Of a DNA stretch of 63,726 nucleotides, positions 6,026 to 61,420 are shown piece by piece. How positions within the stretch are numbered: the first letter of the stretch is position 1; each line of letters starts with the position of its first letter. The stretch spans positions 1-63,726 of the forward strand of contig JAJCXW010000131.1 in assembly GCA_029263235.1 (NCBI GenBank), read 5' to 3'. A program made the position numbers and the translations under genes. Under the pieces are notes generated by a model. The model saw nothing but the letters and a program-made list of their open reading frames with translations, ran no database searches and was not told the DNA's origin. The stretch is from Acidimicrobiales bacterium (GTDB lineage: Bacteria; Actinomycetota; Acidimicrobiia; Acidimicrobiales; Aldehydirespiratoraceae).

Positions 6026-6142
6026 GACCGCGGTGGCAAGGCTTGCCCGGTCGGGCCAGCTGAGCATATAGCAAGTGTCGATAGATTCCTTTACGGTTTG
6101 CGCACACCTCACCCCACCACGACGCCGACCCGAGCCGCGCCA

Positions 6143-6775
6143 CTAGCGGCCACCGCGGCCGTTGAGCCGCTGCAGGTTGGCGTGATTTGCGTCAGTCTGC
6201 CGCTGCAGCGCCTTCAGCTCTGCGCGTGCTGCCATCACCTGCGCGGCTGACGGGGCAGCGCCCAGGGCTGGGCGCTTTGCCCCACCCGTGTCGCCGCCGC
6301 CGCCGCCGCCGCCGTTGCTGGCCGTGGTGGGGATGGGATTCCAGTCACTGTCCAGTTCGCAGACAAACTTGCACCCCGGGCGGTCGCCCTGCTTGACCAT
6401 GCTCAGCTCCGTCGGGGTGTGGCCGTAGACTGAGCTGCCCAGGTCGTCTGGGTCAGAGAGAAAGCAACGGAGCGACAGGGAGCACTCGGTGGCGGACCTG
6501 TCGCGAATCTTGCGCTTCATGGCGATGCCATGGATCGGCCGAGAGGCCATTGTCTCGCAGTTTGCCCGCAGCGTCTGGTCGGCCGGGTGAAAGAACGCAT
6601 GGGACACCCGACCGTACTGGATGCCGCCGTGCTCGGTTTGCAGGGGAAGGTGGCGCATCCTTCGGGCTACCGCCTTCATCTGGTTGCTCCGCAGATTCCA
6701 CCCGTTGTACGCGGCGTCCCGGCCGCGCGGGTGTGCGACAATCTGCCAGCGATACTGCTGTTTTGCGGGGGCCAT
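6143..6775 (-). CDS. Hypothetical protein
   Basis: ATG-initiated 210-aa ORF with balanced composition, a Gly run and a C-terminal coiled-coil-like segment. It fits the spacer/motif layout. No family recognised. Confidence 0.5.
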   Translation of the reverse strand: MAPAKQQYRWQIVAHPRGRDAAYNGWNLRSNQMKAVARRMRHLPLQTEHGGIQYGRVSHAFFHPADQTLRANCETMASRPIHGIAMKRKIRDRSATECSLSLRCFLSDPDDLGSSVYGHTPTELSMVKQGDRPGCKFVCELDSDWNPIPTTASNGGGGGGGDTGGAKRPALGAAPSAAQVMAARAELKALQRQTDANHANLQRLNGRGGR

Positions 6776-6857
6776 CCCGGCGTGCTGTACGTGCTGTGCG
6801 CGCAGAATGGTGCGCCTGGAAATTTGCGGGAAAAACCATCAGTTTTGCGGAGAGCGT

Positions 6858-7601
6858 TTACTCTGCCATCGGATCATCCGCTGCTACCTCCCGCCGGGGC
6901 GGAGCAGCCGGGGCGTCCCGTTCTGCCTGCTGCAGGGCGGACAGATACGCCGCCATGACCGTCTCCAGTCTGCCCATGCTGGCGCGTGTCTCGACAACGC
7001 AATCCATCGCAGACACCAGCTGGCGCTTGAGTGCCGAGCGCGCGCTTGCGGGCATTGCGTCAATCCCTGCTGCCTCTAGATCGTCCGGCACAACCAACAG
7101 GGCGCCATCGGTCCCAGCAGCGGCGGCCGTCGTCGCCGCCGCGTCTTCCGCGTCGGCCGGTGTCCGTGCGCCCGTCCCTGCTCCGCGTGCGGGCTGGGCC
7201 GCGGCGGCGCGGCCTGTCCGCTTGCGGCGCACCTTGGCGATCGAGGCCGGCGGCGCATTGCGGAAAAAGTGACCCGCGCGATGAACAAAGCGCCGGGCAG
7301 TCGGCGCATCGCCTTCCTCTGCGCGACGTTTTGAGAAGCCGTACAGGTTCAGCTGGCGGGTGAACGAGTCAATCTTCAGGCCGCCCGCGGGAATCCTCTC
7401 CGGGTACAGCATCAGCATCATGCCGTCTGGAGAGAACTCGATCCACTGGTCCTCCGGCGCCGTGCTGATGGCGGCGGCTCGGGTGTTCTCTGCCCACGGC
7501 ACAGCCTGCTGGCTGTTCCGGACAGGACTCGGGCTCATGCTGCTGCTGCTGTCGTTGTTGCTGCTGTCGTTGCTGTTGCTGATGCTATCGTTAGCTGCCA
7601 T
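6858..7601 (-). CDS. HSF-type (heat shock factor-like) DNA-binding domain protein
   Basis: DSFTRQLNLYGFSKR ... RFVHRAGHFFRNAPPASIAKVRRKR parallels the HSF signature SFVRQLNMYGFRKV ... FQHPCFLRGQEQLLENIKRK. The N-terminus is Ser/Asn-rich and the C-terminus has a heptad-like segment. Confidence 0.65.
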   Translation of the reverse strand: MAANDSISNSNDSSNNDSSSSMSPSPVRNSQQAVPWAENTRAAAISTAPEDQWIEFSPDGMMLMLYPERIPAGGLKIDSFTRQLNLYGFSKRRAEEGDAPTARRFVHRAGHFFRNAPPASIAKVRRKRTGRAAAAQPARGAGTGARTPADAEDAAATTAAAAGTDGALLVVPDDLEAAGIDAMPASARSALKRQLVSAMDCVVETRASMGRLETVMAAYLSALQQAERDAPAAPPRREVAADDPMAE

Positions 7602-7818: not shown

Positions 7819-10403
<2,585 letters not shown>

Positions 10404-10407: not shown

Positions 10408-10925
10408 TCGGCGGCCGTCCCCGCGGATGACAGTGCGCCGGCAGTATCGTACGCGTTGGTGCAGTAAACGTGCTCTTTGCGGATTTGCTCCAGCTTGTCA
10501 GGGGGGAGGGAGTCGGTGATCCCGATAAGAGCGCAGAGGGCGACCGCAGCGTCTGGCGCGGCCGCGGCCGCATTAATATGCTTGGCCAGCGCAAGCTCGG
10601 TGACGCGGAGCAGCGGACCGCAGTCCAGCCAGTCGGCGGCAGTATCGACCGCGCACAGCTCTGCAAAGCTGCACGCGCTCAGGCGCCCGTCGCGCACAAA
10701 GGACACGGCAGCCTGGACGGCCGGCTGCAAAAGATGCTGAGGCAGCTCAATGACCACCCGGTCCCCGGTGGACCCACAGTCGTCCACGAGGTGCCGGATG
10801 GTTGCAAAGTGCCGACTCTCCGCATAGCTCACCCGCACTGCAGTCTCAGCAGCAGCAGCAGCAGCAGCGGGGGTTCCGCTTACCGGCAGGGTGTCAGCGC
10901 GCAGCTCCACGTGCAGTGTGCACAT
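10404..10925 (-). CDS. SKP1: Skp1-like SCF adaptor protein
   Basis: SFAELCAVDTAADWLDCGPLLRVTELALAKHI parallels Skp1 [43 protein letters not shown] parallels EEEAQVRKENQWC. The N-terminal ATIRHLVDDCG parallels VTIKTMLEDLG. Confidence 0.75.
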
Positions 10926-11021
10926 TTGGCCAACCCGCAGACGGCGGACGGGCAGGATAGGACAGGGACGCCGCGACGGTAGGTCTATTAAATGTATTTT
11001 ACCCGCCCGCGTCCCTCTTTC

Positions 11022-11918: not shown

Positions 11919-12001
11919 GCGGGTGGATGTGGGCGTGCCGCCCCGCTGCTTATGTAGGGAAGCGAAGATTATTCTGCCGCGAAGAACAGATATAGAGAGA
12001 T

Positions 12002-12247
12002 TTACTGGGCGAGTCGGTCATCTCGTTCTCGGACCACGTCCGCCCTATCCTGGCGCATCAGCGGCCATCCGCCCAGAGCACTGACCCAGAAGAGCGGAAA
12101 GCCGACACAGATGAGTAGCAGACATATCACGGCAATCAGTAGACCTGCGACGCGTCGACGGCCTCTGGCGCGCAGTCTTCGCTGATGTGCACGTGCGTGG
12201 TCATACGGGTCGAGCGGATCGCGGCCGTCTGGCTGGGTTGGGTCCAT
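12002..12247 (-). CDS. Small predicted membrane protein
   Basis: The ORF opens at GTG 12322 and the first ATG is at 12247. It has one hydrophobic helix, VAGLLIAVICLLLICVGFPLFWVSALGG. Confidence 0.35.
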   Translation of the reverse strand: MDPTQPDGRDPLDPYDHARAHQRRLRARGRRRVAGLLIAVICLLLICVGFPLFWVSALGGWPLMRQDRADVVRERDDRLAQ

Positions 12248-12352
12248 GGGATGAGGACGGGCGTGGTTTATCCCTTTGGCGCCCGCGGTGACCTGGTAGA
12301 CATCCAGAACGACCGGTGTCACCGGCTGGCGGATATTGCCTGGTCCAATCCT

Positions 12353-12718
12353 TTACAGCGAACGACCGCGTGCGTGCCCCTGTCCCTTGCCGGTTTTCCT
12401 CGCGCGCGTCTTTGTTGCCTTCCTCGCGGCCGCGCGCGCCTTCATCGCGGCCACCTGCTTTGCCCGACGCTTCCATGCGACCTGCGCTGCCCGCCGCAGA
12501 ACGATGCCGGTGAGCAGGTGTGCGCAAATCTCCCCGTCGTCTGTGTCTGGGTCACCCGGGGTCCAGCAGATGCCTGGAACCAGCGCCTCCGCGGCTGCAA
12601 CGGCATCGACAGGCACCGGCGAGGCCGGCGGGGGACTGTGTGAAGCCACATTCATCTTCTCCAGCTGAGCGTCCAGCAGACACCCGAGCGTGTCTGCCGG
12701 GTCGTCATGGGCATCCAT
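12353..12718 (-). CDS. Hypothetical protein with basic C-terminal tail
   Basis: ATG-initiated 121-aa ORF. A CCATAAATATAGG box lies ~85 nt upstream. No family recognised. Confidence 0.4.
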   Translation of the reverse strand: MDAHDDPADTLGCLLDAQLEKMNVASHSPPPASPVPVDAVAAAEALVPGICWTPGDPDTDDGEICAHLLTGIVLRRAAQVAWKRRAKQVAAMKARAAARKATKTRARKTGKGQGHARGRSL

Positions 12719-15415: not shown

Positions 15416-18400
15416 ATGGACATGTCTGGGCCGGCCGCGACTGCGGCCTCGTTGCACTTTCAGCTCTTCTCTCCGACGGAGATTGTGCAACGCAGTGTGT
15501 GTAAGGTGGAGACGGACGTGCTATATGCTGACCGAGCAGCGGCGGCCGGTGGGTTGATGGACCCTCGGATGGGGGCATGGACGTTTGGGGAGGAGTGTTG
15601 GACCTGCCGGGCAACCGTGCAGACCTGCCCTGGGCACCCTGGGCACATTGAGCTGGCCTCGCCGGTCTTTAACATCTACCATGCGAGCGACGTCCGCGCG
15701 CTGCTGCAGTGCATCTGCCACGAGTGCAGTCGGGTGCTGCTGCGCCCGGTCGCCCACGATGAACCCCGCGGACAGAGCCAACTGAACTGGCACCACCCAT
15801 CGAGCTGCCGCTGCTTCTTCTGCAAGACGCAGCCGTCCGCCCCGTTGCACGTGCCCGAGCTATACTGCACCTGTATCTACTGCCGGCCCGGAACAATGGC
15901 TACAATGACGGCCGAGCAGGCGGCGGCTGCCACCGACCCCAACCGTGCTCCGCCCGCCCGCATTCCCATCGTACCGGCCAGTGAGCGGCGGGCCCACCTG
16001 CGTGCACTTGCGGACGCCAGTGCATCGATTGACACCTGCGGCACGGTGCGTGGTTGCACGGCAAAGAAGCGACGGCTGAACGGCATCGATGCGCCGGCCG
16101 ACAGCTGCCAGGCGGTCCGGGTGCAGGCCGGCGGCGGCGCCGGTGCCGTCATGCGACCGCACGAGCAGGGCGTTGCGCGAGAGCTGGCGCAGGATCCTGA
16201 GCGGGTGATGAAGATTCTAACGGCAGTGAGCGAGCGCGACTGTCGCCTGCTTGGCATTGCGCCCGGTCAGCGGCCAGAGTGGCTGCTGATAAGCGTCCTG
16301 TCGGTGCCGCCGCCGACGATCCGGATCAGCGGCGGCGGCGCCAGTGGCGCCAGTGGCGGAAAGGGGTGTCGTGCAGAGAACGGCCTGACCGAGTCGTTGC
16401 GCGCAATCGTGCGGGCAAACAGCGTCCTCGCCGACGCACGGGCCACCAATGTGCTACCACACGTGCTGAAAACGACCGCCGATGCACTGCAGGTGGCGGT
16501 CACTCAGTACCTCGACGGGTCCGGTGGAGACGGCAGTAATGACGCCGGCGGCGGCGGCGCCGATGGCGTCGACACGGACGCGTCGATTGGCCAGCGGCTG
16601 AGCGGAAAGGAGGGCCGCATGCGCTACAATGTGATGGGCAAGCGCGTTGATTTTTCTGCCCGCACCGTCATCAGCCCAGACCCCACCTTGCGCCTGCAAG
16701 ACGTTGGCCTCCCGATGTACATGGTCAAGACGCTGACCTACCCGGAGCATGTGACGCCGATGCGTCGCGACTTTCTGCAGGCGTGTGTTCAGCGCAGCTT
16801 TGACAGCCCCGATGGGTATCCAGGGGCCACCTTTATTGGTCGACGCGAGGAGATGATCGATATCCAGATGATCCAGCAGCACAAGATGCACGGGGCCGAG
16901 GAGCTGCTACGCCTGCGGCCGGGTGACGTTGTGCACCGGAACCTCATCCGGGGCGATGTTGTTCTGCTCAATCGACAGCCCTCCCTCCACAAGATGTCCA
17001 TGCTGGCCATGCTGGTGGTACCGGTCGCGCCGCGGACCATCTGCTTCCATCCTGCGCTCACTCGTCCGCTGAATGGAGACTTTGACGGAGATGAGTGCAA
17101 TATCCACGTGCCCCAGACAGAGGAGGCCCGCGCCGAGGCACTTCTGCTGATGACCCCGGCCGACAACATTGTCTCCTCGCAGAGCAGCCGCCCGGTGATT
17201 GCCTGGGTCCAGGACACGCTCACCGGGGCCTATCTGCTGAGCGAACGCAACTGCTTTCTTGACCGTGCTGCCGCCATGCAGCTCCTGGTCGCCATCGACT
17301 ACGCTGGCTGCCTGCCCGCCCCCGCGATTCTGAAGCCCACTGCACTCTGGACCGGGAAGCAGCTGATCTCTCTGCTGCTGCCGGCAGACCTTGACATGCG
17401 GCGCATCTCGGCCACCCACCGGACAGAGACGTACGAGGCGGCGCAGATGGCCGGCATGGCGGCGGCGCCGCCGCCCCCTGTGCAGCTGCGGCGCCTGCAG
17501 CTTCTCAACGCCCTTGACACCCACGTGTGGATTCGGCGGGGAGAGCTGGTCAGCGGGCAGCTGACCAGCGCGGTGACGGGGACGGCAGCCAACGGCCTCC
17601 TGCACCGAGTCTGGTCCGACAGCGGACCGGAGATGGCCCGCGACCTCTTGACGGCGCTGCAGCGCCTTGTGGGTGCCTGGCTGGAAACGTACGGATTTAG
17701 CGTTGGGCTGGCCGATTTGACGGCCAGCCCGGCCATCAAGGGGCGGATACAGGCGGTGGTTTCGACGGGGGTGGAGAAGCTGGACGAGGTGGAGGCCGAG
17801 GTCGGCACCGACTCGGTGCGGTTTGAGCAGATGGCCAACGTGGCGCTCAACCGGGTGCGCATGGCCTCGGGCGACATTGCCCGCGAAGCGGTCGGTCGGA
17901 CCAATCGCGTGAATCACATGGTCACCTCGGGCGGAAAGGGTAGCACGTCCAATTTCGGCGGCCTGCTCGGCTGCGTCGGCCAGCAGAATGTCGACGGCTG
18001 TCGGATACGACCGGATCTGCGGGGCCGGACGCTGCCGTCGTTTTTCCGCGGTAACCGCGGCGCCGCAGCGGGCGGCTTCATCGGGTCCAACTACATGAAC
18101 GGCCTCAACGAGGCGGAGTTTTTCTTCCATGCGATGGGCGGCCGCGAAGGCCTGGTTGACACGGCCATCAAGACGGCAGACACGGGCTATCTGCAGCGAC
18201 AAACGATCAAGATGATGGAGACGCTGGTGGTGGCCTACGATGGAACGGTGCGAAACGGAGGCGGCGGCGTTGTGCAGTTTGCCTACGGCGAGGACAGCTG
18301 CGACGCCCGACATCTGCACCGGCAGCACCTGCGGACGGCGGGGATGACCACAGCAGAGCTCCGCGACCGCCTCGGGTACACCGACACGGCCCTCGCGGAA

Positions 18401-20695
18401 GCACGACAGCGGGCGACAGACGAATCCGCCACCGGCCCCGACACCCTCATGACGCCGGAGCAGATTGGCGCCAGCTGTTGCGAGGTGCTGCGGGCAGAGA
18501 TGGCGCAGCTGGAAACGGACCGCCGCAGCCTGCGGACATGCCTTTTGCCGGGTCGGGCCTTTGGCCGCACGGGCGCGAGTGCCATGCTGCCCGTGCCCAT
18601 GGATCGGATGCTCAGGGCGTGCGCCCGCCAGTTTTCCTGTCCTCGCCCGGCGGCGGATCGGGCCCGACCCGATGCCTGCGTGCGCCATGTGACGCGGCTG
18701 TGCGCAAGCGTCGCACGGCTGGTGCTTCCGCTGGCCCCCGACGACGTGACACAGGCGGCCACCGCCGTGCTCTGTGCCCACCTCCGCGCCGAGCTGTCCT
18801 CTCGGCGGCTGGTCAGCGAGCTTGGGTTTAGTGCCATGGCCGTGGTCAGCCTGTGCGGCGACGTCCTCCAGCGAGTGCAGGCGGCGCTCGCGCAGCCGGG
18901 CGAGGCGGTCGGAGTGCTTGGTGCGCAGTCGATGGGAGAGCCGGCCACGCAGATGACCCTAAACACCTTTCACTACGCGGGCGTTTCTGCACAGCGCACC
19001 GCAACGACCGGGGTTGTGCGCCTGCGAGAGATTGCCCGGGCAAATCGCAGCATTGCCACCCCACGCTGCGTCGTCTACCTCGACGACGCCGGCGACCCTG
19101 CGGTTGACCACGCCGCGCGGATGGAAGACATCTTCAGTCGGCTGACCCACACCCGACTGAGCGATGTGGCCACCCTAGAAGTGGTGCAGATTGCCGAGTC
19201 GGCCCGGCCCGAGTGGATGCGAGAGTTTTACGAGCTCGAGAGCTTGCTGGCGCCAGAAACGGTGGCGGCATGTGTGGGATCGACGCTGCGTCTGACGATT
19301 GATCCGGTGGCACTGGCACGTCGCTGGCTGTCCATGGAGCTGACGAAAGAGGCGGTGGTTCACTGTCTGCGGCAACGGTATCCGGACCTCGGGGTTTTTT
19401 GCATGTACGCGAGCAGTTCGCACACGGTGGTTGAGGTTCTGAAGGCAGACCAGCGCCGCCGAGCCCTCGACCATGTTTTGACCGCAGAGCACGACATGGC
19501 CATTCGCCGGTCGGCCGGCCGGGTTTTTCTGTATGTGCAGCCACAGGACCTGCCCGACCACGGAGACGTAGAGGCGCTCGGTCAGACCCTGATGGAGACG
19601 GCCGTGCTGACGTGTTGCCCTGGACTGAGCAACCCGACCGTCTGCGACTCGGAACCTCCCCCGCCCCGCTGGGGGACCGCGGCGGACGGAGACGAGGGCG
19701 AGGGGACCGCGGCGGGGCCGCGCCTGATCGTGGAGGGCAGCAATCTTCTGCATCTTCTCGGGGTTCGTGGGGTCTGTCCGCGCCGGACCGTGTCGAACGA
19801 TATCCACGACACGGCGGCCACGCTGGGAATCGAGGCAGCAGAGTCGCTGATCAATGCGGAGCTCCTTGCGGTGCTAGACGACGCGGGCATCTACGTCGAC
19901 CCGCGCCATCGCCAGCTGCTGGCCGCGACCATGACCCAGACCGGGCAGATCGGCTCGGTCACGTACGATGGCCTGCGGCTCTCCGGCGCCGAGCCCATCC
20001 AGCGGTGTAGTTACGAGCGTACCGCCGTCGTCCTGGCGTCGGCGGCCGTCGCCGGACAGGCTGACCGGCTGACCGGGGTCAGTGCGCCGCTGCTCATGGG
20101 AAAACCCATGACGGTCGGAACGGGGTGCTTTTCCCTGCGCAGCAACCGGAAGATTCTGCAGGCATTTGCGCCGCACAGCCAGGATGTGTTTATCGCCGCC
20201 GAGGAGGAGGATGCCCCGTGCACCCCCCGGCACGATCAATCGCCTGACCAGCGGCACCCCCAGCCGACATCTCCTGCGGTTGGGTGCTACTCACCCGTCT
20301 ACGTCCCGGGTACGCCAAGCTACGTCCCCGGGACGCCAAGTTACGCCCCCGTGACGCCAAGCTACGTCCCTGATGATTCGCCGGAGTACCGGGCCACGAC
20401 GCCGTCGTATGTACCAGGCTCGCCAACGTACCAGCCGGTCGACTGGTCAACTTACGGCCAACCGGCGACACGCGCCGGGTTTTACCAGGCAACCTCGCCG
20501 GTCTATTCCCTGCCCGTCGCGGTCGACTACGGAGGGGCCGGTGCCGAGCATGATACAGGCGCAGTGGTACGTCCGTACACACCAAGCCGCCCGTGGTCCC
20601 TCTCTGCCGCGCAGCAATCGGCGCCGGCACCGGCGCCGGCGCCATTTGTCGCCTCGGGCGGGCTGGGGCGCCGGGTTGCCCGTTACGGGATATAA
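15416..20695 (+). CDS. RPB1: DNA-directed RNA polymerase II largest subunit (RPB1-like)
   Basis: Zinc motif [26 protein letters not shown]; [23 protein letters not shown]; [12 protein letters not shown]; catalytic [12 protein letters not shown]; trigger-loop/bridge regions. The ORF 5' extension (13094-15415) is rejected. Start is at ATG 15416 (MDMSGPAA...). Confidence 0.95.
20288..20440 (+). repeat. 21-nt (heptad) repeats at the RPB1 C-terminus
   Basis: [51 protein letters not shown]. Confidence 0.8.
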
Positions 20696-20763: not shown

Positions 20764-21744
20764 ATGTATCCGCGCCGCATGGCCAGGCTATGCGCGGGAG
20801 TGGAGCTGGTCGCAGCGATGCTGCCATGGCTGCTGCTTCTGCTGCTACACCACGCACGCAGTGCAGAGGCGACAGGGGAGCACTGCACAATCGCCGGCCC
20901 AGAGTGTCGGCGGATCGGTGGGCCGGTCTATTTTTCAGAGGCAAGATCGCCCGAGGGCGCACCGGCGCTTTACGCCAGCTGTAATACGCCCCCGGCTGCC
21001 GAGGTTTCCTGCCCGTGGTACCAACATGCACACCTCGGCGCCGACTGGTGGCATCTTGCAGCCACGCTGCACGGCTGCCCGGCCGACGGAGACACGCTGG
21101 TGACCCTTGTGCGCCAGCAGGCGCTTCCGGGCGCCGGGGAGCCACACAACTACTGCGCCGGCAGCGGCATGCTTGGCGTGCTTGCGGGAGAGGGTGGCTT
21201 CGGCTACAACCGCAGCCAGTGTCTGCGGGGAGCGGCGCACAGCGTCACGCCGCACCACGTGGAGACGTGCTGCCCGGCGCCGCTCTGCACCCAGAAGGCC
21301 GGCTCAGCGCCGGGGCAGCAGGTCTGTGCACAGGTGGCGCCTCCGCTCCCGGCGGGCCTTCCTCCGCTCCCGGCTCCGCCCCAGGCCGCACCGCTTACGG
21401 CCCTCCTAGATCTCGTCACACCGCTCTTGCCCACCGGCCCAGCCGGCCCGGTGGGGCCCCAGGGCTCATCTGGCGGCCAAGGCCCCCAAGGCCCCCAGGG
21501 ACCCCCGGGCCCCCGGGGTGCCAACGGAGCGCAAGGCCCCCAGGGGCCGGCGGGGCCGTTGCGCGCGCCCGTCTACACGATGTGCACGTCTGCACAGGGC
21601 ACAACGTGCAGCTGCCCGGCTGGACGCTTCCTGGTCAGCGCGACGCCGGTCTGTGCCAGCGGACTGTCAATGTTTAGCTTTGTCGGGGGCGCCGTGGTGT
21701 GGCAGTGCGCGCTGGGTGGGACAATTTACGTAATTTGCCTATGA
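20764..21744 (+). CDS. Secreted collagen-like repeat protein
   Basis: ATG 20764 gives the signal-like [33 protein letters not shown]. It has 13-14 uninterrupted GXY triplets ([41 protein letters not shown]) and a Cys-containing C-terminal domain. Confidence 0.7.
21436..21558 (+). repeat. Collagen GXY triplet array
   Basis: 41 aa of uninterrupted Gly-X-Y. Confidence 0.85.
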
Positions 21745-21770
21745 CGGCCCTAGGGTAAATCCCCGTGGCC

Positions 21771-23316: not shown

Positions 23317-23336
23317 GTAAACCGTACGAAATTTAC
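23317..23336. terminator. Bidirectional GTAAAC...TTTAC element at a convergent junction (22729-23289 / RPB2)
   Basis: GAGTAAACCGTACGAAATTTACAC. GTAAA reads on each strand 28 nt and 16 nt after the respective stops. Confidence 0.45.
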
Positions 23337-27722: not shown

Positions 27723-27811
27723 CGAGGCGGCACGAGGGCGGGCGGGCGGGCGGGCGCTGCCTTTTGAGGCCAGCGGCTGCGCATGCGGACGCGGGCACGG
27801 CATCCGATTCT

Positions 27812-28075
27812 TTACCGTGGTTCTTTCTCCGCCGCCGCCGCCTCCTCTGCCTCGCGGCGGGCCATACACGTGGGCTCGCGCATGCCGGGAAACCACTGAT
27901 AGCGCTCGTGGCAGCTGGGGCACTTGGGCCCGTAGAGGGGGGTCATCACAAAGCGCTCGATGCGGTTCGGCTCGCGGGCGACCTTGAGCGCAAAGGGTAC
28001 GTTGGCTGCAAGTGTCACGCCAAACAGCCCTGCAAGCACGGGCTCGCGTCGGTACCACGGCCGCGCGGTCGCCAT
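27812..28075 (-). CDS. Small predicted membrane protein with CxxC motif
   Basis: ATG 28075 (MATARPWY...), one hydrophobic helix and CPSCHERY. A CTATAAAACC box lies ~60 nt upstream. Confidence 0.4.
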   Translation of the reverse strand: MATARPWYRREPVLAGLFGVTLAANVPFALKVAREPNRIERFVMTPLYGPKCPSCHERYQWFPGMREPTCMARREAEEAAAAEKEPR

Positions 28076-28143: not shown

Positions 28144-28167
28144 CGGTTTGTTTACCCCACCTGCACG

Positions 28168-34385: not shown

Positions 34386-34607
34386 GTCGGTGACGAGAAC
34401 ACATAAAGATCCAACATCGCCGACAACGACGGGAGAGTGGCGCGCGGCCCACGGGGTCCCTATTACATTTAGTGGGGGGGGCGGTAGCTCACTCATTCTA
34501 GTCCCGTAATAGTGGACCAGTAGGGCCGGGTGTGCACGTGCGCGGGTGCGTACACAGAAAGGCGTAAATGTACACTTTACCGGCACATGGCCGGTATTGC
34601 AACCGCA

Positions 34608-36230: not shown

Positions 36231-36251
36231 AGGACGGACCAGGGAGTTTAC
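36227..36251. terminator. GTAAA...TTTAC element formed by both stop codons at convergent junction 36230/36248
   Basis: CTGTAAAGGACGGACCAGGGAGTTTACG. Confidence 0.4.
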
Positions 36252-37731: not shown

Positions 37732-37769
37732 ACTTAAGTGGAGAATCGTATCCGTTTACCGTGTTCCAC
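37732..37769 (-). promoter_or_regulatory. Promoter-like module of the kinase gene
   Basis: Minus strand: CAGTGGAACACGG (37761-37769 region), GTAAACGGATACG, then CCACTTAAGTCC (37732-37741), ~55 nt upstream of ATG 37675. Confidence 0.4.
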
Positions 37770-41637: not shown

Positions 41638-41651
41638 GTAAACTGATTTAC
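41638..41651. terminator. Bidirectional GTAAAC...TTTAC element at convergent junction 41615/41648
   Basis: GAGTAAACTGATTTACAC. The plus copy is 23 nt after the TAG, and the minus copy contains the TAA stop of gene 41648. Confidence 0.45.
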
Positions 41652-42594: not shown

Positions 42595-42602
42595 AAGCAA
42601 TT

Positions 42603-43784: not shown

Positions 43785-43800
43785 CAGACAGATGTTCGAT

Positions 43801-44205
43801 TTACCGGCCCGTTCTATCCGGGGTCGGTGCATCCGGTCGCCGCGCCCGCGCCCGCTCACGCTCCCATTCGCATACCTGGCACCACGCCGCTCTGACCAGC
43901 GCATCGCCGTGTCGCGCGCGCAGCCAGCGCTTAAGCTCGAGCACCAAAAGGCACCGCTGCTCTCGCGTCTGCTCCGTGTCCGTGTCGATCACGCGCCCAA
44001 ACGAGCAGCCGCGATCTGCACGACAGAGGGCGTGGGCCGCCGCCAGCTCCAGCGTTTCGGCGGGCAGCGCCCGTCGCCAAAGCTCAACCGCCCGCTGGCT
44101 GCCCTTGGCCGGATAGGGCCGGGGTAGACGGTCAAAGAAGACGGCCTGTGCACCGACGAGCGTCGGCAGAGCGATCGGTTCAGTCGCAAACGGGCTTTCC
44201 GCCAT
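43801..44205 (-). CDS. Hypothetical protein
   Basis: The ORF opens at GTG 44223 and the first ATG is at 44205 (MAESPF...). A CTGATAAGCGCAGCGGG box lies upstream. Confidence 0.4.
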   Translation of the reverse strand: MAESPFATEPIALPTLVGAQAVFFDRLPRPYPAKGSQRAVELWRRALPAETLELAAAHALCRADRGCSFGRVIDTDTEQTREQRCLLVLELKRWLRARHGDALVRAAWCQVCEWERERARARRPDAPTPDRTGR

Positions 44206-44465: not shown

Positions 44466-45653
44466 ATGGCCTGGATGCGCGGAGAGACCTACTGGGGGCG
44501 GCGGGGGCAGCGCGTGTCGTTCTGCCTTCCGGGCGGCGGAGAGCAGCGGCAGACTGCGCGCACGAATGGGCTGATCTACTCAGCGCTGCAAAAGGCCGCG
44601 CGGCGCGCAGACCGGCCGGCCCTGTGTGCATTTGTCCTCGAGCTGTGCATGGGAGGGAATACAGGCGCGGCAATCAAGCGCCTCGGCGTGGTGCTGGCAG
44701 AGGATTTTCACATCGAGGGCGCGCGGCGCCTGCCGGCATTTTGGCGTCTTCAGAAGCGGGCCGCCCGCAAGGATTGCTCAGCCGCCGAAAAAGAGCGCAT
44801 TGCGCTGAGCCTGTGCAGCCTCCTGCTTGATCTTCCGGCCTGGCGCGGCGCGGCCGAGCTGGCCTCGGTCGGCCTGGCACTCGCGCAGACTGCCCCGGTG
44901 CTCAGCGCGGCGGCGCGGCTGGCCGAGCTGGCCGCACAGGAGGCGGCGGCAGCAGCAGCTGTGTCGCCACATTCTGCTGCGCTGGAGCGGGTGCAGCAGC
45001 TGGCCGGAGCGGTGGAGCAGTGGGTGCTCTGCACTCCCACCCGGGCTGAGCAGCGCAAGGCTCCGGGGGGCGACTGGGCCCTGGAGCCGCAGCGCCTGGG
45101 CGCGTCGATCGTGCGGCTGCTGGCCGCAGAGCTGGGCCCGGCCCGGCTGACCGGGCGACCGCTGGTGGGGCAGCTGATCTGCGAGTTTTCCCGCCTGCAC
45201 TGCCTGGCCGCAACAACCGGCAGCACTCACCGGCTCTATCTCTATGGGGCCGTCTGGGCAGCGGTGGTGGCGCCCGGCACACCGGTGCAGCCCCTGGAGA
45301 TTCCCCTGCTCTCCGCCGAGCAGTGCGCCGATATGCGTCGGCTGTATGGCGCCGAGCCCGCGCCGGTGCCAGACTATGCGCTGGACAAGCACACCTCGGT
45401 GGGCCGCTCCCAGCTGCGTCGAGGACTTGAGCATTTTCTCACCGAGGGGGTGCATCTCCACCGGCCGCTCTACTGCCCGGAGAAGGCCGCGCTTGTCGGC
45501 GGCGAGGAGGCCGCGGCGGCCCTCGGTGTCCAGGCAGCATCCAAGGCGGCCTATCGGCGCTGGGCGGCGAGCGGGACCGCCTGTAAGTCTGGCGCACAGC
45601 GCGCCGCGTGGGCGGCGCAGCAGGCGGCGGCGGCGGCGGAGCATAACGAGTAA
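44466..45653 (+). CDS. Hypothetical protein (weak resemblance to MgsA/RarA C-terminal helical domain)
   Basis: Trimmed to ATG 44466, 52 nt downstream of CATAAAAG. LIYSALQKAARRADRPALCAFVLELCMGGNTGAAIKRLGVVLAEDF loosely recalls the ISAxxKSxRGSDxDAALYWLARMxxxGEDPxxIARRLxxxAxEDIG pattern. No ATPase motifs are present. Confidence 0.45.
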   Translation: MAWMRGETYWGRRGQRVSFCLPGGGEQRQTARTNGLIYSALQKAARRADRPALCAFVLELCMGGNTGAAIKRLGVVLAEDFHIEGARRLPAFWRLQKRAARKDCSAAEKERIALSLCSLLLDLPAWRGAAELASVGLALAQTAPVLSAAARLAELAAQEAAAAAAVSPHSAALERVQQLAGAVEQWVLCTPTRAEQRKAPGGDWALEPQRLGASIVRLLAAELGPARLTGRPLVGQLICEFSRLHCLAATTGSTHRLYLYGAVWAAVVAPGTPVQPLEIPLLSAEQCADMRRLYGAEPAPVPDYALDKHTSVGRSQLRRGLEHFLTEGVHLHRPLYCPEKAALVGGEEAAAALGVQAASKAAYRRWAASGTACKSGAQRAAWAAQQAAAAAEHNE

Positions 45654-45706
45654 AGTTCCTGAGATTGAGCAAAACTGTGATTTACGCCGCAAGTCGCCGC
45701 CGGCGG

Positions 45707-47655: not shown

Positions 47656-47780
47656 GCGTCGCGCCGCGTGTAAAGCATTCTTATTCCCTAGCCACACCCT
47701 CTGTTTGTGCGGTCTGTGGTCTCGGCGGACGGATGCCGCTGGCGCGGAACCCGCATGCGAACAACTGGCGCTAGCAGCGG

Positions 47781-48339: not shown

Positions 48340-50319
48340 ATGCGCTTCGCGCTGCTGCTGCTGCTGCCGCTGCTCTGCGCGGTGGCGTCCCGGGCACAGA
48401 CGGTGCCGCCGCTCGTGCCGTCCCTTGACCGTGCCGGCGAGCACGGCGCCGCCCACCGGGGCCTGGCTGCGCGGGGGCCGCTCGGGGATGCGGCGCGCCT
48501 GACGGCGCTGCCGGGCGCGCGTGCCATCTCGAATGCGCTGATGGCCGCCGGCAGCGCGGGCAGCGACCCAGAGGAGGCCAACGCGTTGGATCCCCGGGGC
48601 CTGAGCGAGTTCTCCATTGTCTTTCACCAGTTTACCGCGCACCAGCTGGTGCTGACGGGTGCCGAACCGGGCCAGTCGCTGCCCATGGCCGTGCCGCTGG
48701 GCGACCCCGTCTTTGACCGCCTGCAGCGCGGCGACGCCACGCTGCCCTTTACCCGCACCCGCTCTGTGCTTGAGCCCTCGGCGCGCGACGGCTCCCAGCC
48801 GGTGCCGCTCAACGGCCTCAGCTCCTACCTGGACGGCTCGTCGATCTACGGCACATCGCTGCCGCGGCTGGCTGCCCTGCGCACGGGCCGGGGCGGCCTG
48901 CTGCGGCTGGACGAGCGCGAGATGCTGCCGCTCGTGGGCGACCTGCCCGCTGAACACCGCGCAGGCTTTGCGGTGGACGCTGATGCCGGTGCCAACCCGA
49001 TGCGCCTCTTTGCGGCCGGGGACGTGCGGGCCTCGGAGCACGCCGAGCTGAGCGCCCTGCACACGGTCTGGGCCCGCGAGCACAACGCGCAGGCACGCGC
49101 GGCCGCCGCCGCCCGGCCGGGAGACGGGGACGAGGCGCTGTTTGTGCGGGCGCGCCAGATGGTGCTGGCCGAGCTGCAGCGCATCACCTTTTACGAGGCG
49201 CTGCCGGCGCTGATCGGCCAGCGCAACATGCCGCCCGCCTACCGCGGCTACCGGCGCCCGGCGGCAGACGCCGTCGGCTCGCGGCTCAGCAACGACTTTG
49301 CCACGGCCGCGTACCGCTTTGGCCACTCGATGATCTCGCCACACACGGCGCTGCAGCTGCGCGAAGACGGCACGGTGACGGAGGGCGCGCCCCTGCGCAC
49401 CCTCTTCTTCAACACGACCCACCTGCTCGCGGCCGAACAGGGCGTCGACGGCCTGCTGCGCGGCATGATGGCCCGGGGCGCGCGCGCCGCGAACCGCTTT
49501 GTTGCCGAGGACCTGCGTTCGATGCTCTTCCAGCACGGGCCCCAGGCCGACCCCTCGGCGCCGGGTGCCAGCAATCCCAGCGGCCACGACCTGGCCGCGC
49601 GCAACCTGCAGCGCGGCCGTGACCACCGCCTCGTGCCCTACAATGCCATGCGCATCCGCTACGGCCTGCCGCCGATGCCGACCTTTGTCGCCCTGCTTGG
49701 CGCCGCGCGCAGCCGCGCGCAGCCGCAGGTGGTCGCCGAGCTGCGCCGTTTCTACGGCAGCCCGGACGAGTGCGACGCCTGGCTCTGCGGGCGGCTGGAG
49801 GCCGCCGCGCCGGACAGCTCGCTGGGGCCCCTCTTCACCATGATCATCTCGGACCAGTTTGCCCGGCTGCGCGACCACGACCCCCACTGGTACGAGGCAC
49901 TCGGCCCGGCCGGCACCGGCGGCGACGGCGGCGATCCGCCGGCCCTGCGCAGTGACCCCGAGCAGTTTCGTGGCGCCCACCGGCCGCGTGACGGCAGCGC
50001 CGGTGGCGGCGTCTTCTCGGCCCACGACATGCGCTACCTGCGGGGGCGCACCATGCGCGCCCTGCTCCTGGATAACACCCACATGCACCCGGGCAACCTG
50101 CCGGCAGACTATGATCCCTTTTACACCCCCGGCCAGCACGCCGCCTCGTGCGAGCACAGCGAACACTATCGCAGCCCGCGGTCTAGCGCTGAAAATGTGC
50201 TGCTGCTCGCGGGCGCGGGCGCACTGATGCTGCTGCTGTGGGCTATCTGGCTGCTGACCCGCCCGCCGGCCGGCGTGTACGCGTATGGCGGCGCCGGCGC
50301 AAAGCGTGCCACAGCGTAA
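48340..50319 (+). CDS. Animal-type heme peroxidase family protein, signal peptide and C-terminal TM anchor
   Basis: MRFALLLLLPLLCAVASRAQ signal; FHQFTAHQL (distal His region); GDVRASEHAELSALHTVWAREHN (proximal His region); LQRGRDHRLVPYNAMR; C-terminal hydrophobic LLLAGAGALMLLLWAIWLL. Confidence 0.88.
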   Translation: MRFALLLLLPLLCAVASRAQTVPPLVPSLDRAGEHGAAHRGLAARGPLGDAARLTALPGARAISNALMAAGSAGSDPEEANALDPRGLSEFSIVFHQFTAHQLVLTGAEPGQSLPMAVPLGDPVFDRLQRGDATLPFTRTRSVLEPSARDGSQPVPLNGLSSYLDGSSIYGTSLPRLAALRTGRGGLLRLDEREMLPLVGDLPAEHRAGFAVDADAGANPMRLFAAGDVRASEHAELSALHTVWAREHNAQARAAAAARPGDGDEALFVRARQMVLAELQRITFYEALPALIGQRNMPPAYRGYRRPAADAVGSRLSNDFATAAYRFGHSMISPHTALQLREDGTVTEGAPLRTLFFNTTHLLAAEQGVDGLLRGMMARGARAANRFVAEDLRSMLFQHGPQADPSAPGASNPSGHDLAARNLQRGRDHRLVPYNAMRIRYGLPPMPTFVALLGAARSRAQPQVVAELRRFYGSPDECDAWLCGRLEAAAPDSSLGPLFTMIISDQFARLRDHDPHWYEALGPAGTGGDGGDPPALRSDPEQFRGAHRPRDGSAGGGVFSAHDMRYLRGRTMRALLLDNTHMHPGNLPADYDPFYTPGQHAASCEHSEHYRSPRSSAENVLLLAGAGALMLLLWAIWLLTRPPAGVYAYGGAGAKRATA

Positions 50320-50363
50320 AACGCACGCGGTCCATCCTAGTACATTCGCCACCCACCCCCTCA

Positions 50364-54108: not shown

Positions 54109-54636
54109 ATGAGCGACGAGCGCACAGCCGCACCGCTGCCCGTCCATGCGACGGTGGCCTATGATGTGCATGATGTGTGGCATGGAGGGCCTGGCAGCAC
54201 CCTTACCTTTGCGGGATTTTCCCCGACGCGCTGCTGGCACGGAACCCTCGACGGAACCATGCCCACCTTTGCCGATCAGGCGATCGTGGTGGCTGCCCAT
54301 GTGGCCAGCTGCCTGGCGTCTGTGCCAAGTGACCGCGCGCTCGTGTGCGTCTTTGAGGCAAATCTTGGCGCGGAAGCTTACCACTGGCGCCGGGCAATGG
54401 CAGAGGCCTTTCCAGACGACCCCCGTGTGCACTTTTTCCACGAGGGCACCAAGCCCGGGCTGCAGGTGACCTTTGCCAAGCTGGCATGCGCGGGCATGCG
54501 CGGAATCGGTGTGCTTCCGGACACCCTGTGTGCCGCGGCGGGCAAAGTGCAGACGGAGCAGGTGCGCCTGTGCGCCCACGAACACGCGCTGCTGGCGGCA
54601 GCGTATGCGTGGTACTGCCTGGAGGCGTCCGTGTAA
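54109..54636 (+). CDS. Hypothetical protein
   Basis: Trimmed to ATG 54109 (MSDERTAAP...), 65 nt downstream of the CTTATAACC box. Confidence 0.45.
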   Translation: MSDERTAAPLPVHATVAYDVHDVWHGGPGSTLTFAGFSPTRCWHGTLDGTMPTFADQAIVVAAHVASCLASVPSDRALVCVFEANLGAEAYHWRRAMAEAFPDDPRVHFFHEGTKPGLQVTFAKLACAGMRGIGVLPDTLCAAAGKVQTEQVRLCAHEHALLAAAYAWYCLEASV

Positions 54637-54712
54637 AGCGTCAGTGGTTACATCCCACGCTGGCCGCCGGTGCCGGAAAATGGCCCAACCCGGCCGTCCG
54701 CATGTTCCGCCG

Positions 54713-56706: not shown

Positions 56707-56720
56707 GTAAACATTTACAC
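56707..56720. terminator. Bidirectional GTAAAC...TTTAC element at convergent junction 56689/56779
   Basis: GGGGGTAAACATTTACACAC lies 18 nt after the plus-strand stop and ~60 nt after the minus-strand stop. Confidence 0.45.
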
Positions 56721-58074: not shown

Positions 58075-58078
58075 TTTG

Positions 58079-60862: not shown

Positions 60863-60937
60863 CACCTCTATATGGCCCGCGGGCCCGTGCATTCATTAGT
60901 GGTAGTTGCGGTAGAGGCGACTGCAGACGCCGCTGCA

Positions 60938-61396
60938 ATGTCCGCCGCCGCCGCTTCGCCCGACCCGGTACCGATCCGCTTTTCCGAGAGCGACGGCGAC
61001 CTGCGGCTTGAGCTTGTGCCGCTGGACGCGGCGACTGAGGACCAGTGTCCGGCCGACACCCTGCTGGTACACGTGCCCCGGGCCCACGTGCAGCAATGTG
61101 CCGAGACGCAGACAGTGGTCTGCAGCTTTCCTGCTGCGGCCGCCGACGGTGCCAGCTGGGCGCAGCCGGTGCGCGTGCGCGCAAGCGTGCGCAAGGCGGG
61201 GCAGGAGTACGCCGTCGAGTTTCTGCTCAACACGACGCGACACGAGCTCGACGCTCGCGAGGCGCTTGCTCGCGACGGGCACGAGGTGCGCCTGCTTGAC
61301 GGCGATGGGAGCGTCCGCTGGTTTGCGCCCTCTGCCGCGACGGGCACCGCCTCCATCCACCTGCCGGCCGCGCTGTGCTTCCCCGCCGAGGCGTAA
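60938..61396 (+). CDS. Hypothetical protein
   Basis: ATG 60938 (MSAAAASPDP...) is 73 nt downstream of the CCTCTATATGG box. Composition is beta-rich. No family recognised. Confidence 0.45.
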   Translation: MSAAAASPDPVPIRFSESDGDLRLELVPLDAATEDQCPADTLLVHVPRAHVQQCAETQTVVCSFPAAAADGASWAQPVRVRASVRKAGQEYAVEFLLNTTRHELDAREALARDGHEVRLLDGDGSVRWFAPSAATGTASIHLPAALCFPAEA

Positions 61397-61420
61397 ATCC
61401 ATGTCAATTGCATCGTTTAC
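61393..61420. terminator. GTAAA...TTTAC element formed by both stop codons at convergent junction 61396/61417
   Basis: In GCGTAAATCCATGTCAATTGCATCGTTTACAG, both TAA stops are embedded in the motif. Confidence 0.4.

What the first reader, a model, noticed from the sequence alone, without database searches (positions are those of the whole stretch)
6090..61420. GTAAA as a candidate 3'-end signal, with TAA(A) stop bias and GTAAAC...GTTTAC palindromes at convergent junctions
By my count, 20 of 39 stop codons are TAA, and 17 of those read TAAA. That is unusual for a ~65% GC genome.

Of the 19 genes ending in TAG or TGA, 11 have GTAAA on the sense strand within about 10-60 nt after the stop. Examples (plus coordinates, with minus-strand cases given as TTTAC) are 21755, 47670, 23317, 41638, 56707, 23332-36, 45681-85, 28151-55, 10997-11002, 6090-94 and 56714-18.

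At convergent gene pairs the two copies face each other as GTAAA(N2-28)TTTAC: 23317-36, 34564-80, 36227-51, 41638-51, 45650-88, 56707-20 and 61393-420. Three of these share the longer form GTAAAC..ATTTACAC.

An identical 13-mer, GCAGTAAACGTGC, occurs at 21-33, where it may mark the end of a gene upstream of the window. It also occurs at 10461-73, 54 nt after the stop at 10407.

GTAAA has an expected frequency of about 3e-4 per position at this composition, so the clustering is far above chance.
Basis: seen in the sequence. Interest (0 to 1): 0.65.

Follow-up and report, generated by a model that had tools for sequence, protein, structure and literature searches.

The report
GTAAA gene-end signal in a giant-virus-like contig
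A five-letter word, GTAAA, marks the ends of most genes on a GC-rich, giant-virus-like DNA piece wrongly binned with a bacterium; it often doubles as the stop codon and most likely tells the cell where to end and polyadenylate each mRNA.

Summary

**What the window is.** It is not part of the bacterial bin. It is a 68% GC contig, like contigs C39 and C162, that encodes very divergent Pol II-type RPB1 and RPB2, MYND, ankyrin/F-box, VPS9, HSF, ubiquitin and many ORFans. It is most likely an uncultured giant virus with no detectable relatives.

**The motif.**
- Across the three contigs, 31 of 49 genes carry sense-strand GTAAA between one base before the stop and 60 nt after it.
- In 16 genes the stop is the TAA inside G-TAA-A. 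In 15 the motif lies wholly downstream (1.2 expected).
- Only 3 of 48 start-codon flanks have it.
- Copies per intergenic spacer are 1.8 (convergent), 0.8 (tandem) and 0.2 (divergent).
- Tandem spacers show it is strand-specific: GTAAA 14 of 22, TTTAC 4 of 22.
- 3' flanks show no excess of hairpins, so the convergent "palindromes" are two opposed linear signals.

**Reading.** Best fit is a short poly(A)-type 3'-end signal that doubles as a stop codon. A viral-polymerase terminator is the main rival.

**Limits.** No RNA data or relatives exist, so the function is inferred. It is a new variant of a known kind.

The parts
6857..6861 (-). GTAAA with the stop codon embedded (G-TAA-A); HSF-like gene 6858-7601
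12001..12005 (-). GTAAA, stop embedded; ORF 12002-12352
12352..12356 (-). GTAAA, stop embedded; gene 12353-12718
27811..27815 (-). GTAAA, stop embedded; 87-aa ORF 27812-28075, 89 nt before the RPB2 ATG
36227..36231 (+). GTAAA, stop embedded; gene 35757-36230. Faces 36247-36251.
36247..36251 (-). GTAAA, stop embedded; kinase-MYND gene 36248-37675
41647..41651 (-). GTAAA, stop embedded; gene 41648-42112
42602..42606 (-). GTAAA, stop embedded; gene 42603-43685
43800..43804 (-). GTAAA, stop embedded; gene 43801-44205
45650..45654 (+). GTAAA, stop embedded; gene 44466-45653
50316..50320 (+). GTAAA, stop embedded; haem peroxidase gene 48340-50319
54633..54637 (+). GTAAA, stop embedded; gene 54109-54636
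61393..61397 (+). GTAAA, stop embedded; gene 60872-61396
61416..61420 (-). GTAAA, stop embedded; gene 61417-62169
63676..63680 (+). GTAAA, stop embedded; ankyrin/F-box gene 62168-63679
6090..6094 (-). GTAAA 51 nt after the TAG of gene 6143-6775 (tandem spacer)
10464..10468 (+). GTAAA 59 nt after the TAA of gene 7819-10407; lies antisense inside the convergent gene 10404-10925
10998..11002 (-). GTAAA 22 nt after the TAG of gene 11022-11918
21725..21729 (-). GTAAA 44 nt after the TAA of the dNK gene 21771-22589; lies antisense inside the neighbouring CDS
21755..21759 (+). GTAAA 13 nt after the TGA of gene 20764-21744
23317..23321 (+). GTAAA 30 nt after the TGA of gene 22729-23289
23332..23336 (-). 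GTAAA 18 nt after the TAG of RPB2 (23352-27722)
28151..28155 (-). GTAAA 15 nt after the TAG of the MYND gene 28168-31617
41638..41642 (+). GTAAA 25 nt after the TAG of gene 40008-41615
45681..45685 (-). GTAAA 24 nt after the TGA of gene 45707-46369
47670..47674 (+). GTAAA 17 nt after the TGA of the ubiquitin-domain gene 46585-47655 (tandem spacer)
56707..56711 (+). GTAAA 20 nt after the TAG of gene 54842-56689
56714..56718 (-). GTAAA 63 nt after the TGA of the probable gene 56779-57972
629..633 (-). Possible distal signal, 229 nt after the TAG of gene 860-6067
743..747 (+). Possible distal signal, 108 nt after the TAG of the RING gene 44-637
34564..34568 (+). Possible distal signal, 241 nt after the TAG of the M13 peptidase gene 31818-34325
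34576..34580 (-). Possible distal signal, 209 nt after the TAG of gene 34787-35593. A second copy lies at 34660-34664, 125 nt after the stop.
37755..37759 (-). Possible signal, 114 nt after the TGA of gene 37871-39715 and 80 nt before the next ATG
50120..50124 (-). Possible distal signal, 242 nt after the TGA of gene 50364-53879; lies antisense inside the peroxidase CDS
24..28 (+). GTAAA inside GCAGTAAACGTGC, 16 nt before ATG 44. It may close a gene that lies left of the window.
15416..20695 (+). Context: Pol II-type RPB1 with a short CTD-like heptad tail (YVPGTPS-like, about 6 copies). It ends in A-TAA-A, not GTAAA.
23352..27722 (-). Context: very divergent RPB2

Best explanation
GTAAA (GUAAA in the RNA) is the main mRNA 3'-end formation signal of an uncultured, 68% GC, giant-virus-like element whose contigs were mis-binned into a bacterial MAG.

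**How it appears to work.**
- It is read on the sense strand as a short linear word, not as a hairpin.
- It lies 5-60 nt after the stop codon, or it contains the stop codon itself (G-UAA-A, a "dual-use" signal, in about one gene in three).
- Most likely it acts like a eukaryotic poly(A) signal of the NNUAAA class, corresponding to positions 2-6 of AGUAAA/UGUAAA. The nascent transcript would be cut and polyadenylated a few tens of nucleotides downstream.
- That would give very short 3' UTRs and overlapping 3' ends at convergent gene pairs.

**Shown.** Position, strand specificity, the 2:1:0 rule across spacer types, absence of hairpins, and the link between TAA stops and the motif.

**Inferred.** That transcripts end there.

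**Odds.** About 0.8 that it is a 3'-end signal of some kind. About 0.55 that it is specifically a poly(A)-type cleavage signal.
For: - 31 of 49 genes on three contigs carry sense GTAAA from one base before the stop to 60 nt after it. 16 are embedded in the stop and 15 lie wholly downstream, against 1.16 +/- 1.06 in flank shuffles.
- GTAAA is the top-ranked 5-mer in 3' flanks: 30 of 47 genes against 1.1 expected, and 3 genes in 5' flanks.
- Motifs per spacer: convergent 22 in 12, tandem 17 in 21, divergent 2 in 10, at similar AT content (0.35-0.39). CDS density is 0.31 per kb.
- In tandem spacers, GTAAA occurs within 60 nt in 14 of 22 and TTTAC in 4 of 22.
- The word is specific. GTAAA occurs in 31 genes, TGTAA[CGT] in 1, GTAA[CGT] in 4 and [ACT]TAAA in 8. 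No flanking position is conserved.
- 16 of 23 TAA stops are G-TAA-A. A at +4 follows 78% of TAA stops but 8% of TAG/TGA stops.
- There is no general 3' hairpin: median folding z is about 0, and 4 of 46 flanks have z below -2.
- Precedents exist. PBCV-1 shares its host's TGTAA signal (PMC3946568). Stop codons doubling as poly(A) signals are documented in Giardia (WGURAA), Naegleria and trichomonads (PMC11529991). UAAA and GUAA are reported in a red alga (PMC6413133).
- RPB1 keeps CTD-like heptads.
Against: - No transcript data exist. Only four low-coverage DNA runs hold the contig.
- There are no relatives in which to test conservation.
- Depletion of sense GTAAA inside CDS (1 observed against 4.0 expected under synonymous shuffling) is not significant (P = 0.08). 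The sense/antisense asymmetry is largely explained by codon usage.
- 18 of 49 genes lack the motif within 60 nt, and about 10 lack it within 250 nt.
- Five intergenic copies are unexplained, two of them in divergent spacers (31808, 46490).
- The sample is only 80 kb and my gene calls are home-made.
- Nothing distinguishes host CPSF-type reading from a virus-encoded factor.
Confidence: 0.55

Rival explanations
1. GUAAA is a transcription termination signal for the virus's own RNA polymerase. A virus-encoded factor would read it in the nascent RNA, as the capping enzyme/NPH-I system reads U5NU at poxvirus early genes. Polyadenylation would follow separately or not at all.
For: - The element encodes its own RPB1 and RPB2.
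- All positional evidence fits a terminator as well as a cleavage signal.
- Short linear terminators exist in poxviruses, as cited in PMC3946568.
Against: - The word matches the UAAA core and AGUAAA/UGUAAA variants of eukaryotic poly(A) signals.
- No termination-factor, poly(A) polymerase or RNase III gene was seen in the 80 kb, although most of the genome is missing.
- RPB1 is Pol II-like with a CTD-like tail.
Confidence: 0.25
2. The functional unit is the palindrome GTAAA...TTTAC, a hairpin in the manner of the Mimiviridae "hairpin rule", and the pentamer is only its arm.
For: Seven convergent junctions show GTAAA(N2-26)TTTAC.
Against: - In tandem spacers the motif occurs alone: 14 of 22 with GTAAA against 4 of 22 with TTTAC.
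- 3' flanks do not fold better than shuffles (median z about 0).
- Stems would be only 5 bp, with loops as short as 2 nt (56707-56718).
- The sequence between the arms is mostly not self-complementary.
Confidence: 0.03
3. There is no RNA signal. The pattern is a by-product of AT-richer spacers, a translational stop context (TAA-A), back-up stop codons, or ORF-calling.
For: - Spacers are AT-richer than CDS (0.35-0.39 against 0.31).
- A purine at +4 is a common strong-stop context (general knowledge).
Against: - Divergent spacers of similar AT content have 0.2 copies each, against 1.8 in convergent spacers.
- Shuffling each flank gives 1.2 genes against 15 observed.
- Downstream copies are in frame with the ORF in only 7 of 16 cases, against one third expected (distances).
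- Other AT-rich 5-mers are not comparably enriched.
Confidence: 0.04
4. GTAAA words are 5' splice sites. The ORFs that end in them would be exons of larger spliced genes.
For: - GT-initial word.
- Several same-strand ORF pairs are only 75-125 nt apart.
- Splice-site-like GGTRAGT words occur after the gene 860-6067.
Against: - 16 of 24 convergent gene ends have the motif, with a well-supported gene on the other strand immediately beyond, leaving no room for a downstream exon.
- Domain-complete genes end at the motif: peroxidase, kinase-MYND, ankyrin/F-box.
- RPB2 starts normally at ATG 27722 relative to its Pfam domain 1.
Confidence: 0.03
5. It is an oriented DNA-level element at gene boundaries, such as a binding site for a chromatin, insulator or replication protein, rather than an RNA signal.
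For: It is strictly intergenic or stop-adjacent. No RNA evidence is available.
Against: - Orientation follows the upstream gene's coding strand.
- The count per spacer follows the number of gene 3' ends.
- The word overlaps stop codons.

All of this is expected for something read in the transcript.
Confidence: 0.05

Closest known systems
"Dual-use" poly(A) signals of Giardia (WGURAA: AGUAAA, UGUAAA, AGUGAA) and of Naegleria and trichomonads (AAUAAA/UAAA) (PMC11529991, PMC9014877)
   Same: - A short linear sense-strand word lies close to the stop codon in a compact genome and often contains the stop codon itself.
- GUAAA equals positions 2-6 of AGUAAA/UGUAAA.
- No auxiliary elements are evident.
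   Different: - Here the first hexamer position is free (A 6, C 9, G 8, T 8 of 31).
- GUGAA is not used (2 of 49).
- The dual-use share is higher: 33% of genes against 7-18% in Giardia.
- The carrier is a virus-like element with its own Pol II-like polymerase.
- Cleavage sites are unmapped.
TGTAA poly(A) signal shared by chlorovirus PBCV-1 and its Chlorella host (PMC3946568)
   Same: A giant virus uses a short linear poly(A)-type pentamer with a GUAA core instead of hairpins.
   Different: - The word here is GTAAA, not TGTAA.
- T at -1 occurs in only 8 of 31 sites, and TGTAA followed by a non-A in 1 of 49 genes.
- PBCV-1 has no RNA polymerase of its own, and its signal was mapped with RNA-seq. 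Here nothing is mapped.
UAAA and GUAA near-upstream elements of the red alga Cyanidioschyzon merolae (PMC6413133)
   Same: The two overlapping tetramers together spell GUAAA. That genome is also compact and intron-poor.
   Different: - The paper reports tetramers, not the pentamer.
- Nothing links this element to a red alga. The RPB1 tree shows no such affinity.
Mimiviridae / Marseilleviridae / Pithovirus "hairpin rule" (Byrne 2009; PMC4402537; PMC5413956)
   Same: It is a giant-virus signal placed right after stop codons that defines mRNA 3' ends. It is enriched between ORFs and tied to upstream stops.
   Different: - The hairpin rule is structure-defined, sequence-free and uses long stems.
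- Here the signal is a fixed 5-nt word with no fold excess.
Poxvirus early terminator U5NU (TTTTTNT)
   Same: It is a short linear word read in the nascent RNA of a virus-encoded multisubunit polymerase, shortly before the 3' end.
   Different: - The word is different: TTTTT occurs in only 3 of 49 flanks.
- The poxvirus signal serves early genes only.
- Here most genes carry the word and it overlaps stop codons.

Membership tests
Eukaryote-type poly(A) signal (NNUAAA class, dual-use variant) | Lies about 10-30 nt upstream of mapped cleavage/poly(A) sites | not testable with these tools
   No RNA run holds the sequence.
Eukaryote-type poly(A) signal (NNUAAA class, dual-use variant) | Sense-strand enrichment just downstream of stop codons and absence before starts | tested here: met
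   31 of 49 3' flanks against 3 of 48 5' flanks. Spacer classes give 1.8, 0.8 and 0.2 copies each.
Eukaryote-type poly(A) signal (NNUAAA class, dual-use variant) | The stop codon forms part of the signal in a fraction of genes | tested here: met
   16 of 49 genes end in G-TAA-A.
Eukaryote-type poly(A) signal (NNUAAA class, dual-use variant) | Avoidance of the word inside coding sequence | tested here: inconclusive
   1 observed against 4.0 expected under synonymous shuffling, P = 0.08.
Eukaryote-type poly(A) signal (NNUAAA class, dual-use variant) | Recognition by CPSF (WDR33/CPSF30) and cleavage by CPSF73 | not testable with these tools
   The host is unknown, and no such genes lie on the 80 kb.
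Giant-virus hairpin rule | A stable palindromic hairpin (stem of 10 bp or more) at most gene 3' ends | tested here: not met
   Median z of 70-nt 3' flanks is about 0. Only 4 of 46 have z below -2.
Giant-virus hairpin rule | Virus-encoded RNase III and poly(A) polymerase | tested here: inconclusive
   None appear among the Pfam hits of the 80 kb, but most of the genome is missing.
Green-alga / chlorovirus TGTAA signal | The pentamer UGUAA, with U at position 1 and a free base after AA | tested here: not met
   T at -1 in 8 of 31 sites. TGTAA[CGT] in 1 of 49 genes against GTAAA in 31 of 49.
Poxvirus U5NU terminator | TTTTTNT downstream of the ORF | tested here: not met
   TTTTT in 3 of 49 flanks.
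Nucleocytoviricota (identity of the carrier) | Hallmark genes: double-jelly-roll capsid, A32 ATPase, VLTF3, D5, PolB | tested here: inconclusive
   - Pfam Capsid_NCLDV and Pox_A32 give no viral hit anywhere in the bin.
- Only RPB1 and RPB2 are present, both far from known NCLDV copies: 26-30% identity to IMG/VR RPB1s and a 5.3 substitutions/site branch.
- Only 80 kb is available.

The most novel reading that the evidence does not exclude
The element would be a deep-branching giant virus whose own Pol II-like polymerase, through its short YVPGTPS-type CTD-like tail, hands transcripts to the host's nuclear cleavage/polyadenylation machinery at GUAAA.

On this reading the word is the host's own poly(A) signal. 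It would serve as a sequence-only clue to the unknown host: a lineage with G at position 2 of the hexamer, such as diplomonad-like WGUAAA users or red-alga-like (G)UAAA users. At 33%, it would also be the highest known share of stop codons that double as poly(A) signals.
Probability: 0.2. Interest if true: 0.7.

Novelty: new variant of a known kind. Interest (0 to 1): 0.5.

Why it matters
- **Annotation.** If transcripts end at GUAAA, gene ends in this orphan, high-GC virus lineage can be annotated from sequence alone.
- **Stop-codon usage.** It explains the odd 47% TAA usage in 68% GC DNA.
- **Range of giant-virus 3'-end signals.** It adds a third style, a fixed pentamer that doubles as the stop codon, to the hairpins of mimivirus-like viruses and the host-type TGTAA of chloroviruses.
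- **Host clue.** Because the word looks like a cellular poly(A) signal, it may point to the host lineage and to a nuclear phase of a virus that nevertheless carries its own polymerase.
- **Data quality.** The bacterial MAG in a species-level reference set contains about 80 kb of eukaryotic-virus DNA.

Tried and rejected
**Searches for relatives, all negative.**
- RPB2 and RPB1 as single queries against IMG/VR, JGI metagenomes and GTDB genomes found no close relative.
- Alignment-based RPB1 scans returned only hits of 25-37% identity. The viral ones are 44% GC or lower and show no GTAAA excess.
- The one 74% GC hit, L103, is a eukaryote-like contig with a split RPB1.
- ORFan searches found nothing in 5.8 billion proteins or 1.84 billion representatives.

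**Other dead ends.**
- RNA evidence: no RNA run holds the sequence.
- Population variation: four DNA runs hold identical sequence at 3-5x, so conservation could not be tested.
- CDS avoidance: not significant once codon usage is modelled, so I dropped it as evidence.
- Hairpin rule: rejected.
- Rfam: no hit.
- NCLDV hallmark Pfam models in the bin: no hit.
- RPB1 tree for a host clue: uninformative long branch.
- Literature: no paper links GTAAA/GUAAA as such to a viral 3' signal.
- The Pandoraviridae paper reports no 3' motif.
Full report
**1. What the window is**

The window is contig C131 of a 3.26-Mb, 266-contig bin with a median GC of 63.4%. C131 has 67.8% GC and is a tetranucleotide outlier: its correlation with the bin's large contigs is 0.72. 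Two small contigs resemble it at r = 0.98: C39 (9.7 kb) and C162 (7.0 kb).

GTAAA/TTTAC density is 0.83 per kb on C131 (0.83 for the three contigs together), while most large contigs of the bin have well under 0.1 per kb.

The genes are of eukaryotic-virus type:
- a Pol II-type RPB1 (15416-20695) and an RPB2 (23352-27722) only 2.7 kb apart
- MYND fingers, ankyrin/F-box, VPS9+MORN, an HSF-type DNA-binding domain, a ubiquitin domain and a RING finger
- deoxynucleoside kinase, animal-type haem peroxidase and M13 peptidase
- a SNARE on C162

Divergence is extreme:
- RPB1 is 33-36% identical to every eukaryotic Pol II RPB1 and 26-30% identical to IMG/VR giant-virus RPB1s. It sits on a branch of 5.3 substitutions per site.
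- RPB2 is at most 32% identical, over a quarter to a third of its length, to anything found.
- Large ORFans have no homologue in 5.8 billion proteins or 1.84 billion representatives.
- No NCLDV capsid or A32 model hits the bin.

I read it as an uncultured, deep-branching giant-virus-like element, at about 0.8. It comes from biofilm metagenomes, where it sits at 3-5x coverage in four DNA runs.

**2. The observation**

All quoted coordinates are real apart from three one-to-three-base slips. The window has 53 GTAAA on both strands, against 16.1 +/- 4.1 in dinucleotide shuffles.

I called genes with a codon log-odds model trained on the Pfam-supported ORFs, using ATG starts and a non-overlapping optimum. 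I then added two well-supported ORFs.

The 53 copies fall into these classes:

| Class | Copies |
|---|---|
| Contain a stop codon (G-TAA-A) | 15 |
| 0-60 nt after a same-strand stop | 12 |
| 61-250 nt after a same-strand stop | 9 |
| Antisense inside CDS, far from any same-strand stop | 11 |
| Otherwise intergenic | 5 |
| Sense inside a CDS | 1 |

**3. Statistics** (window plus C39 and C162, 49 genes)

- Sense GTAAA occurs from one base before the stop to 60 nt after it in 31 genes. Sixteen are embedded in the stop. Fifteen lie wholly downstream, against 1.16 +/- 1.06 (maximum 6 of 2000) when each flank is shuffled.
- GTAAA is the top-ranked 5-mer in 3' flanks: 30 of 47 genes against 1.1 expected, and only 3 genes in the 64 nt before start codons.
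- Copies per spacer are 22 in 12 convergent, 17 in 21 tandem and 2 in 10 divergent spacers, at AT contents of 0.39, 0.38 and 0.35. CDS density is 0.31 per kb.
- In tandem spacers GTAAA lies within 60 nt of the stop in 14 of 22 cases and its complement in 4 of 22. The signal is therefore strand-specific and needs no palindrome.

**4. Anatomy**

An alignment of 31 sites shows no conserved base on either side. Position -1 reads A 6, C 9, G 8, T 8. The sequence upstream is GC-rich and coding-like, and the 5-30 nt downstream are mildly AT-enriched.

The word is specific:

| Word | Genes |
|---|---|
| GTAAA | 31 |
| TGTAA[CGT] | 1 |
| GTAA[CGT] | 4 |
| [ACT]TAAA | 8 |
| AATAAA | 2 |
| TTTTT | 3 |

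The TAA bias is a consequence of the motif. Sixteen of 23 TAA stops are G-TAA-A. A at +4 follows 18 of 23 TAA stops but only 2 of 26 TAG/TGA stops. Without the embedded cases, TAA makes up 7 of 33 stops.

The embedded share of one third is what a randomly phased signal placed at the ORF end would give in DNA where other stop codons are rare.

Downstream copies are not back-up stops: 7 of 16 are in frame, against one third expected (distances).

In tandem pairs the word lies at least 70-90 nt before the next ATG in most cases. That leaves room for a cleavage zone and the promoter.

At convergent pairs the two words face each other across 2-26 nt, or even cross (21729/21755). Some lie antisense inside the neighbour's CDS (10464, 21729). 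Opposed transcripts would therefore overlap at their 3' ends.

**5. Structure**

Seventy-nucleotide 3' flanks do not fold better than dinucleotide shuffles. Median z is -0.07 for tandem and -0.23 for convergent flanks, and 4 of 46 fall below -2. Their stems would be only 5 bp, with loops down to 2 nt.

Two of the few strong hairpins follow genes that lack a nearby GTAAA: 31818-34325 and 47834-48235.

**6. What did not hold**

Sense GTAAA is almost absent inside CDS (1 copy), while the antisense word is common (20 copies). Synonymous-codon shuffling predicts 4.0 and 25.4 respectively (P = 0.08). The asymmetry is therefore mostly codon usage, and I do not count it as evidence.

Eighteen of 49 genes lack the word within 60 nt. 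Some of them have [A/T]TAAA at or near the stop. One, 57848-60862, abuts the next gene and may share that gene's signal.

**7. Mechanism**

*Shown:* a strand-specific pentamer tied to gene 3' ends, hairpin-independent, and frequently supplying the stop codon.

*Inferred:* it directs 3'-end formation of the mRNA.

I favour a poly(A)-type cleavage signal, for four reasons:
- GUAAA is the 3' five-sixths of AGUAAA/UGUAAA. These are known natural poly(A) hexamers, and UAAA is their conserved core.
- Stop codons doubling as poly(A) signals are documented in compact protist genomes.
- A chlorovirus is known to share its host's pentamer TGTAA.
- The RPB1 here is Pol II-like and keeps about six YVPGTPS-type heptads. 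This hints at coupling to CTD-binding processing factors.

The main rival is a poxvirus-style terminator read by a viral factor. The sequence evidence cannot separate the two. Hairpin, composition or stop-context, intron and DNA-boundary readings are each contradicted by specific tests listed above and in the Rival explanations section.

**8. Comparison and novelty**

The signal works like the dual-use poly(A) signals of Giardia and trichomonads and like the PBCV-1/Chlorella TGTAA signal. It fails the defining features of the hairpin rule, of U5NU and of TGTAA proper.

No paper in the library links GTAAA/GUAAA to a viral 3' signal. Medusavirus lacks 3' hairpins but no alternative signal was reported for it. 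The Pandoraviridae paper reports no 3' motif.

I class the finding as a new variant of a known kind, carried by a lineage with no detectable relatives.

**9. Verdict**

Function is unproven for lack of RNA data and relatives. Interest is moderate (0.5). The signal itself is a plausible variation on known themes. The carrier, a 68% GC orphan virus with a Pol II-like polymerase hidden in a bacterial MAG, adds to its value.

Noticed in passing
whole window; also contigs C39 and C162 of the same assembly: About 80 kb of eukaryotic-virus-like DNA (68% GC) is binned with a 63.5% GC bacterial MAG that serves as a species representative. This is contamination of the reference genome.
   Followed up: yes
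window 20280-20440 (+): The RPB1 C-terminus carries about six heptads of the type YVPGTPS / YAPVTPS / YVPGSPT. They keep Y1, P3, P6 and S7 of the Pol II CTD but have no serine at position 2.
   Followed up: partly
window about 790-845 (-): Directly after the TAG of the 1735-aa gene 860-6067 lie three 5'-splice-site-like words (GGTGAGT, GGTAAGT, GGTAAGT) within 45 nt. The next sense GTAAA is 229 nt away. This could be a 3'-UTR intron, a hidden last exon, or chance.
   Followed up: no
window 34326-34400 (+) and 48236-48300 (+): Two genes without a nearby GTAAA are followed by strong hairpins (folding z of -4.5 and -4.6). These may be an alternative 3'-end device.
   Followed up: partly
window 50364-53879 (-) and 7819-10407 (+): The 1171-aa and 862-aa ORFs have good codon scores but no homologue at all in 1.84 billion representative proteins and 5.8 billion proteins respectively.
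   Followed up: yes
window 23989-24084 (+): ARAGORN calls a 96-nt tRNA-Ala(GGC) antisense to the RPB2 coding sequence. It is probably a false positive.
   Followed up: no
window 23317-23341, 41638-41656, 56707-56723: Three convergent junctions share a longer form: (A/G)GTAAAC on the plus strand and TGTGTAAAT on the minus strand. This may be a subclass or small duplicated module of the signal.
   Followed up: no
window 27812-28075 (-): An 87-aa ORF with a good coding score lies just upstream of RPB2. It ends in GTAAA 89 nt before the RPB2 ATG and overlaps the long open frame that extends RPB2 upstream.
   Followed up: partly
window 28168-31617 and 36248-37675; C162 22-1434, 3151-4092, 4177-5475: MYND-type zinc fingers, or MYND-like Cys-rich ends (the C162 copies were seen only in the translations, not scanned), recur on at least five otherwise unrelated proteins, one of them a protein kinase. 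This looks like a lineage-specific domain expansion.
   Followed up: no
window 60862-60872 (+): Gene 57848-60862 ends in TGA only 9 nt before the ATG of gene 60872-61396 and has no GTAAA of its own. The pair may be co-transcribed and share the signal at 61393.
   Followed up: no
locus L103 (JGI contig Ga0315288_10005196): This 74% GC metagenome contig has an RPB1 with the highest full-length match to the window's among the metagenome loci (35% in the best segment). It is split over two frames (intron-like) and has A-rich 3' flanks. It is a eukaryote-like contig, not a relative.
   Followed up: partly
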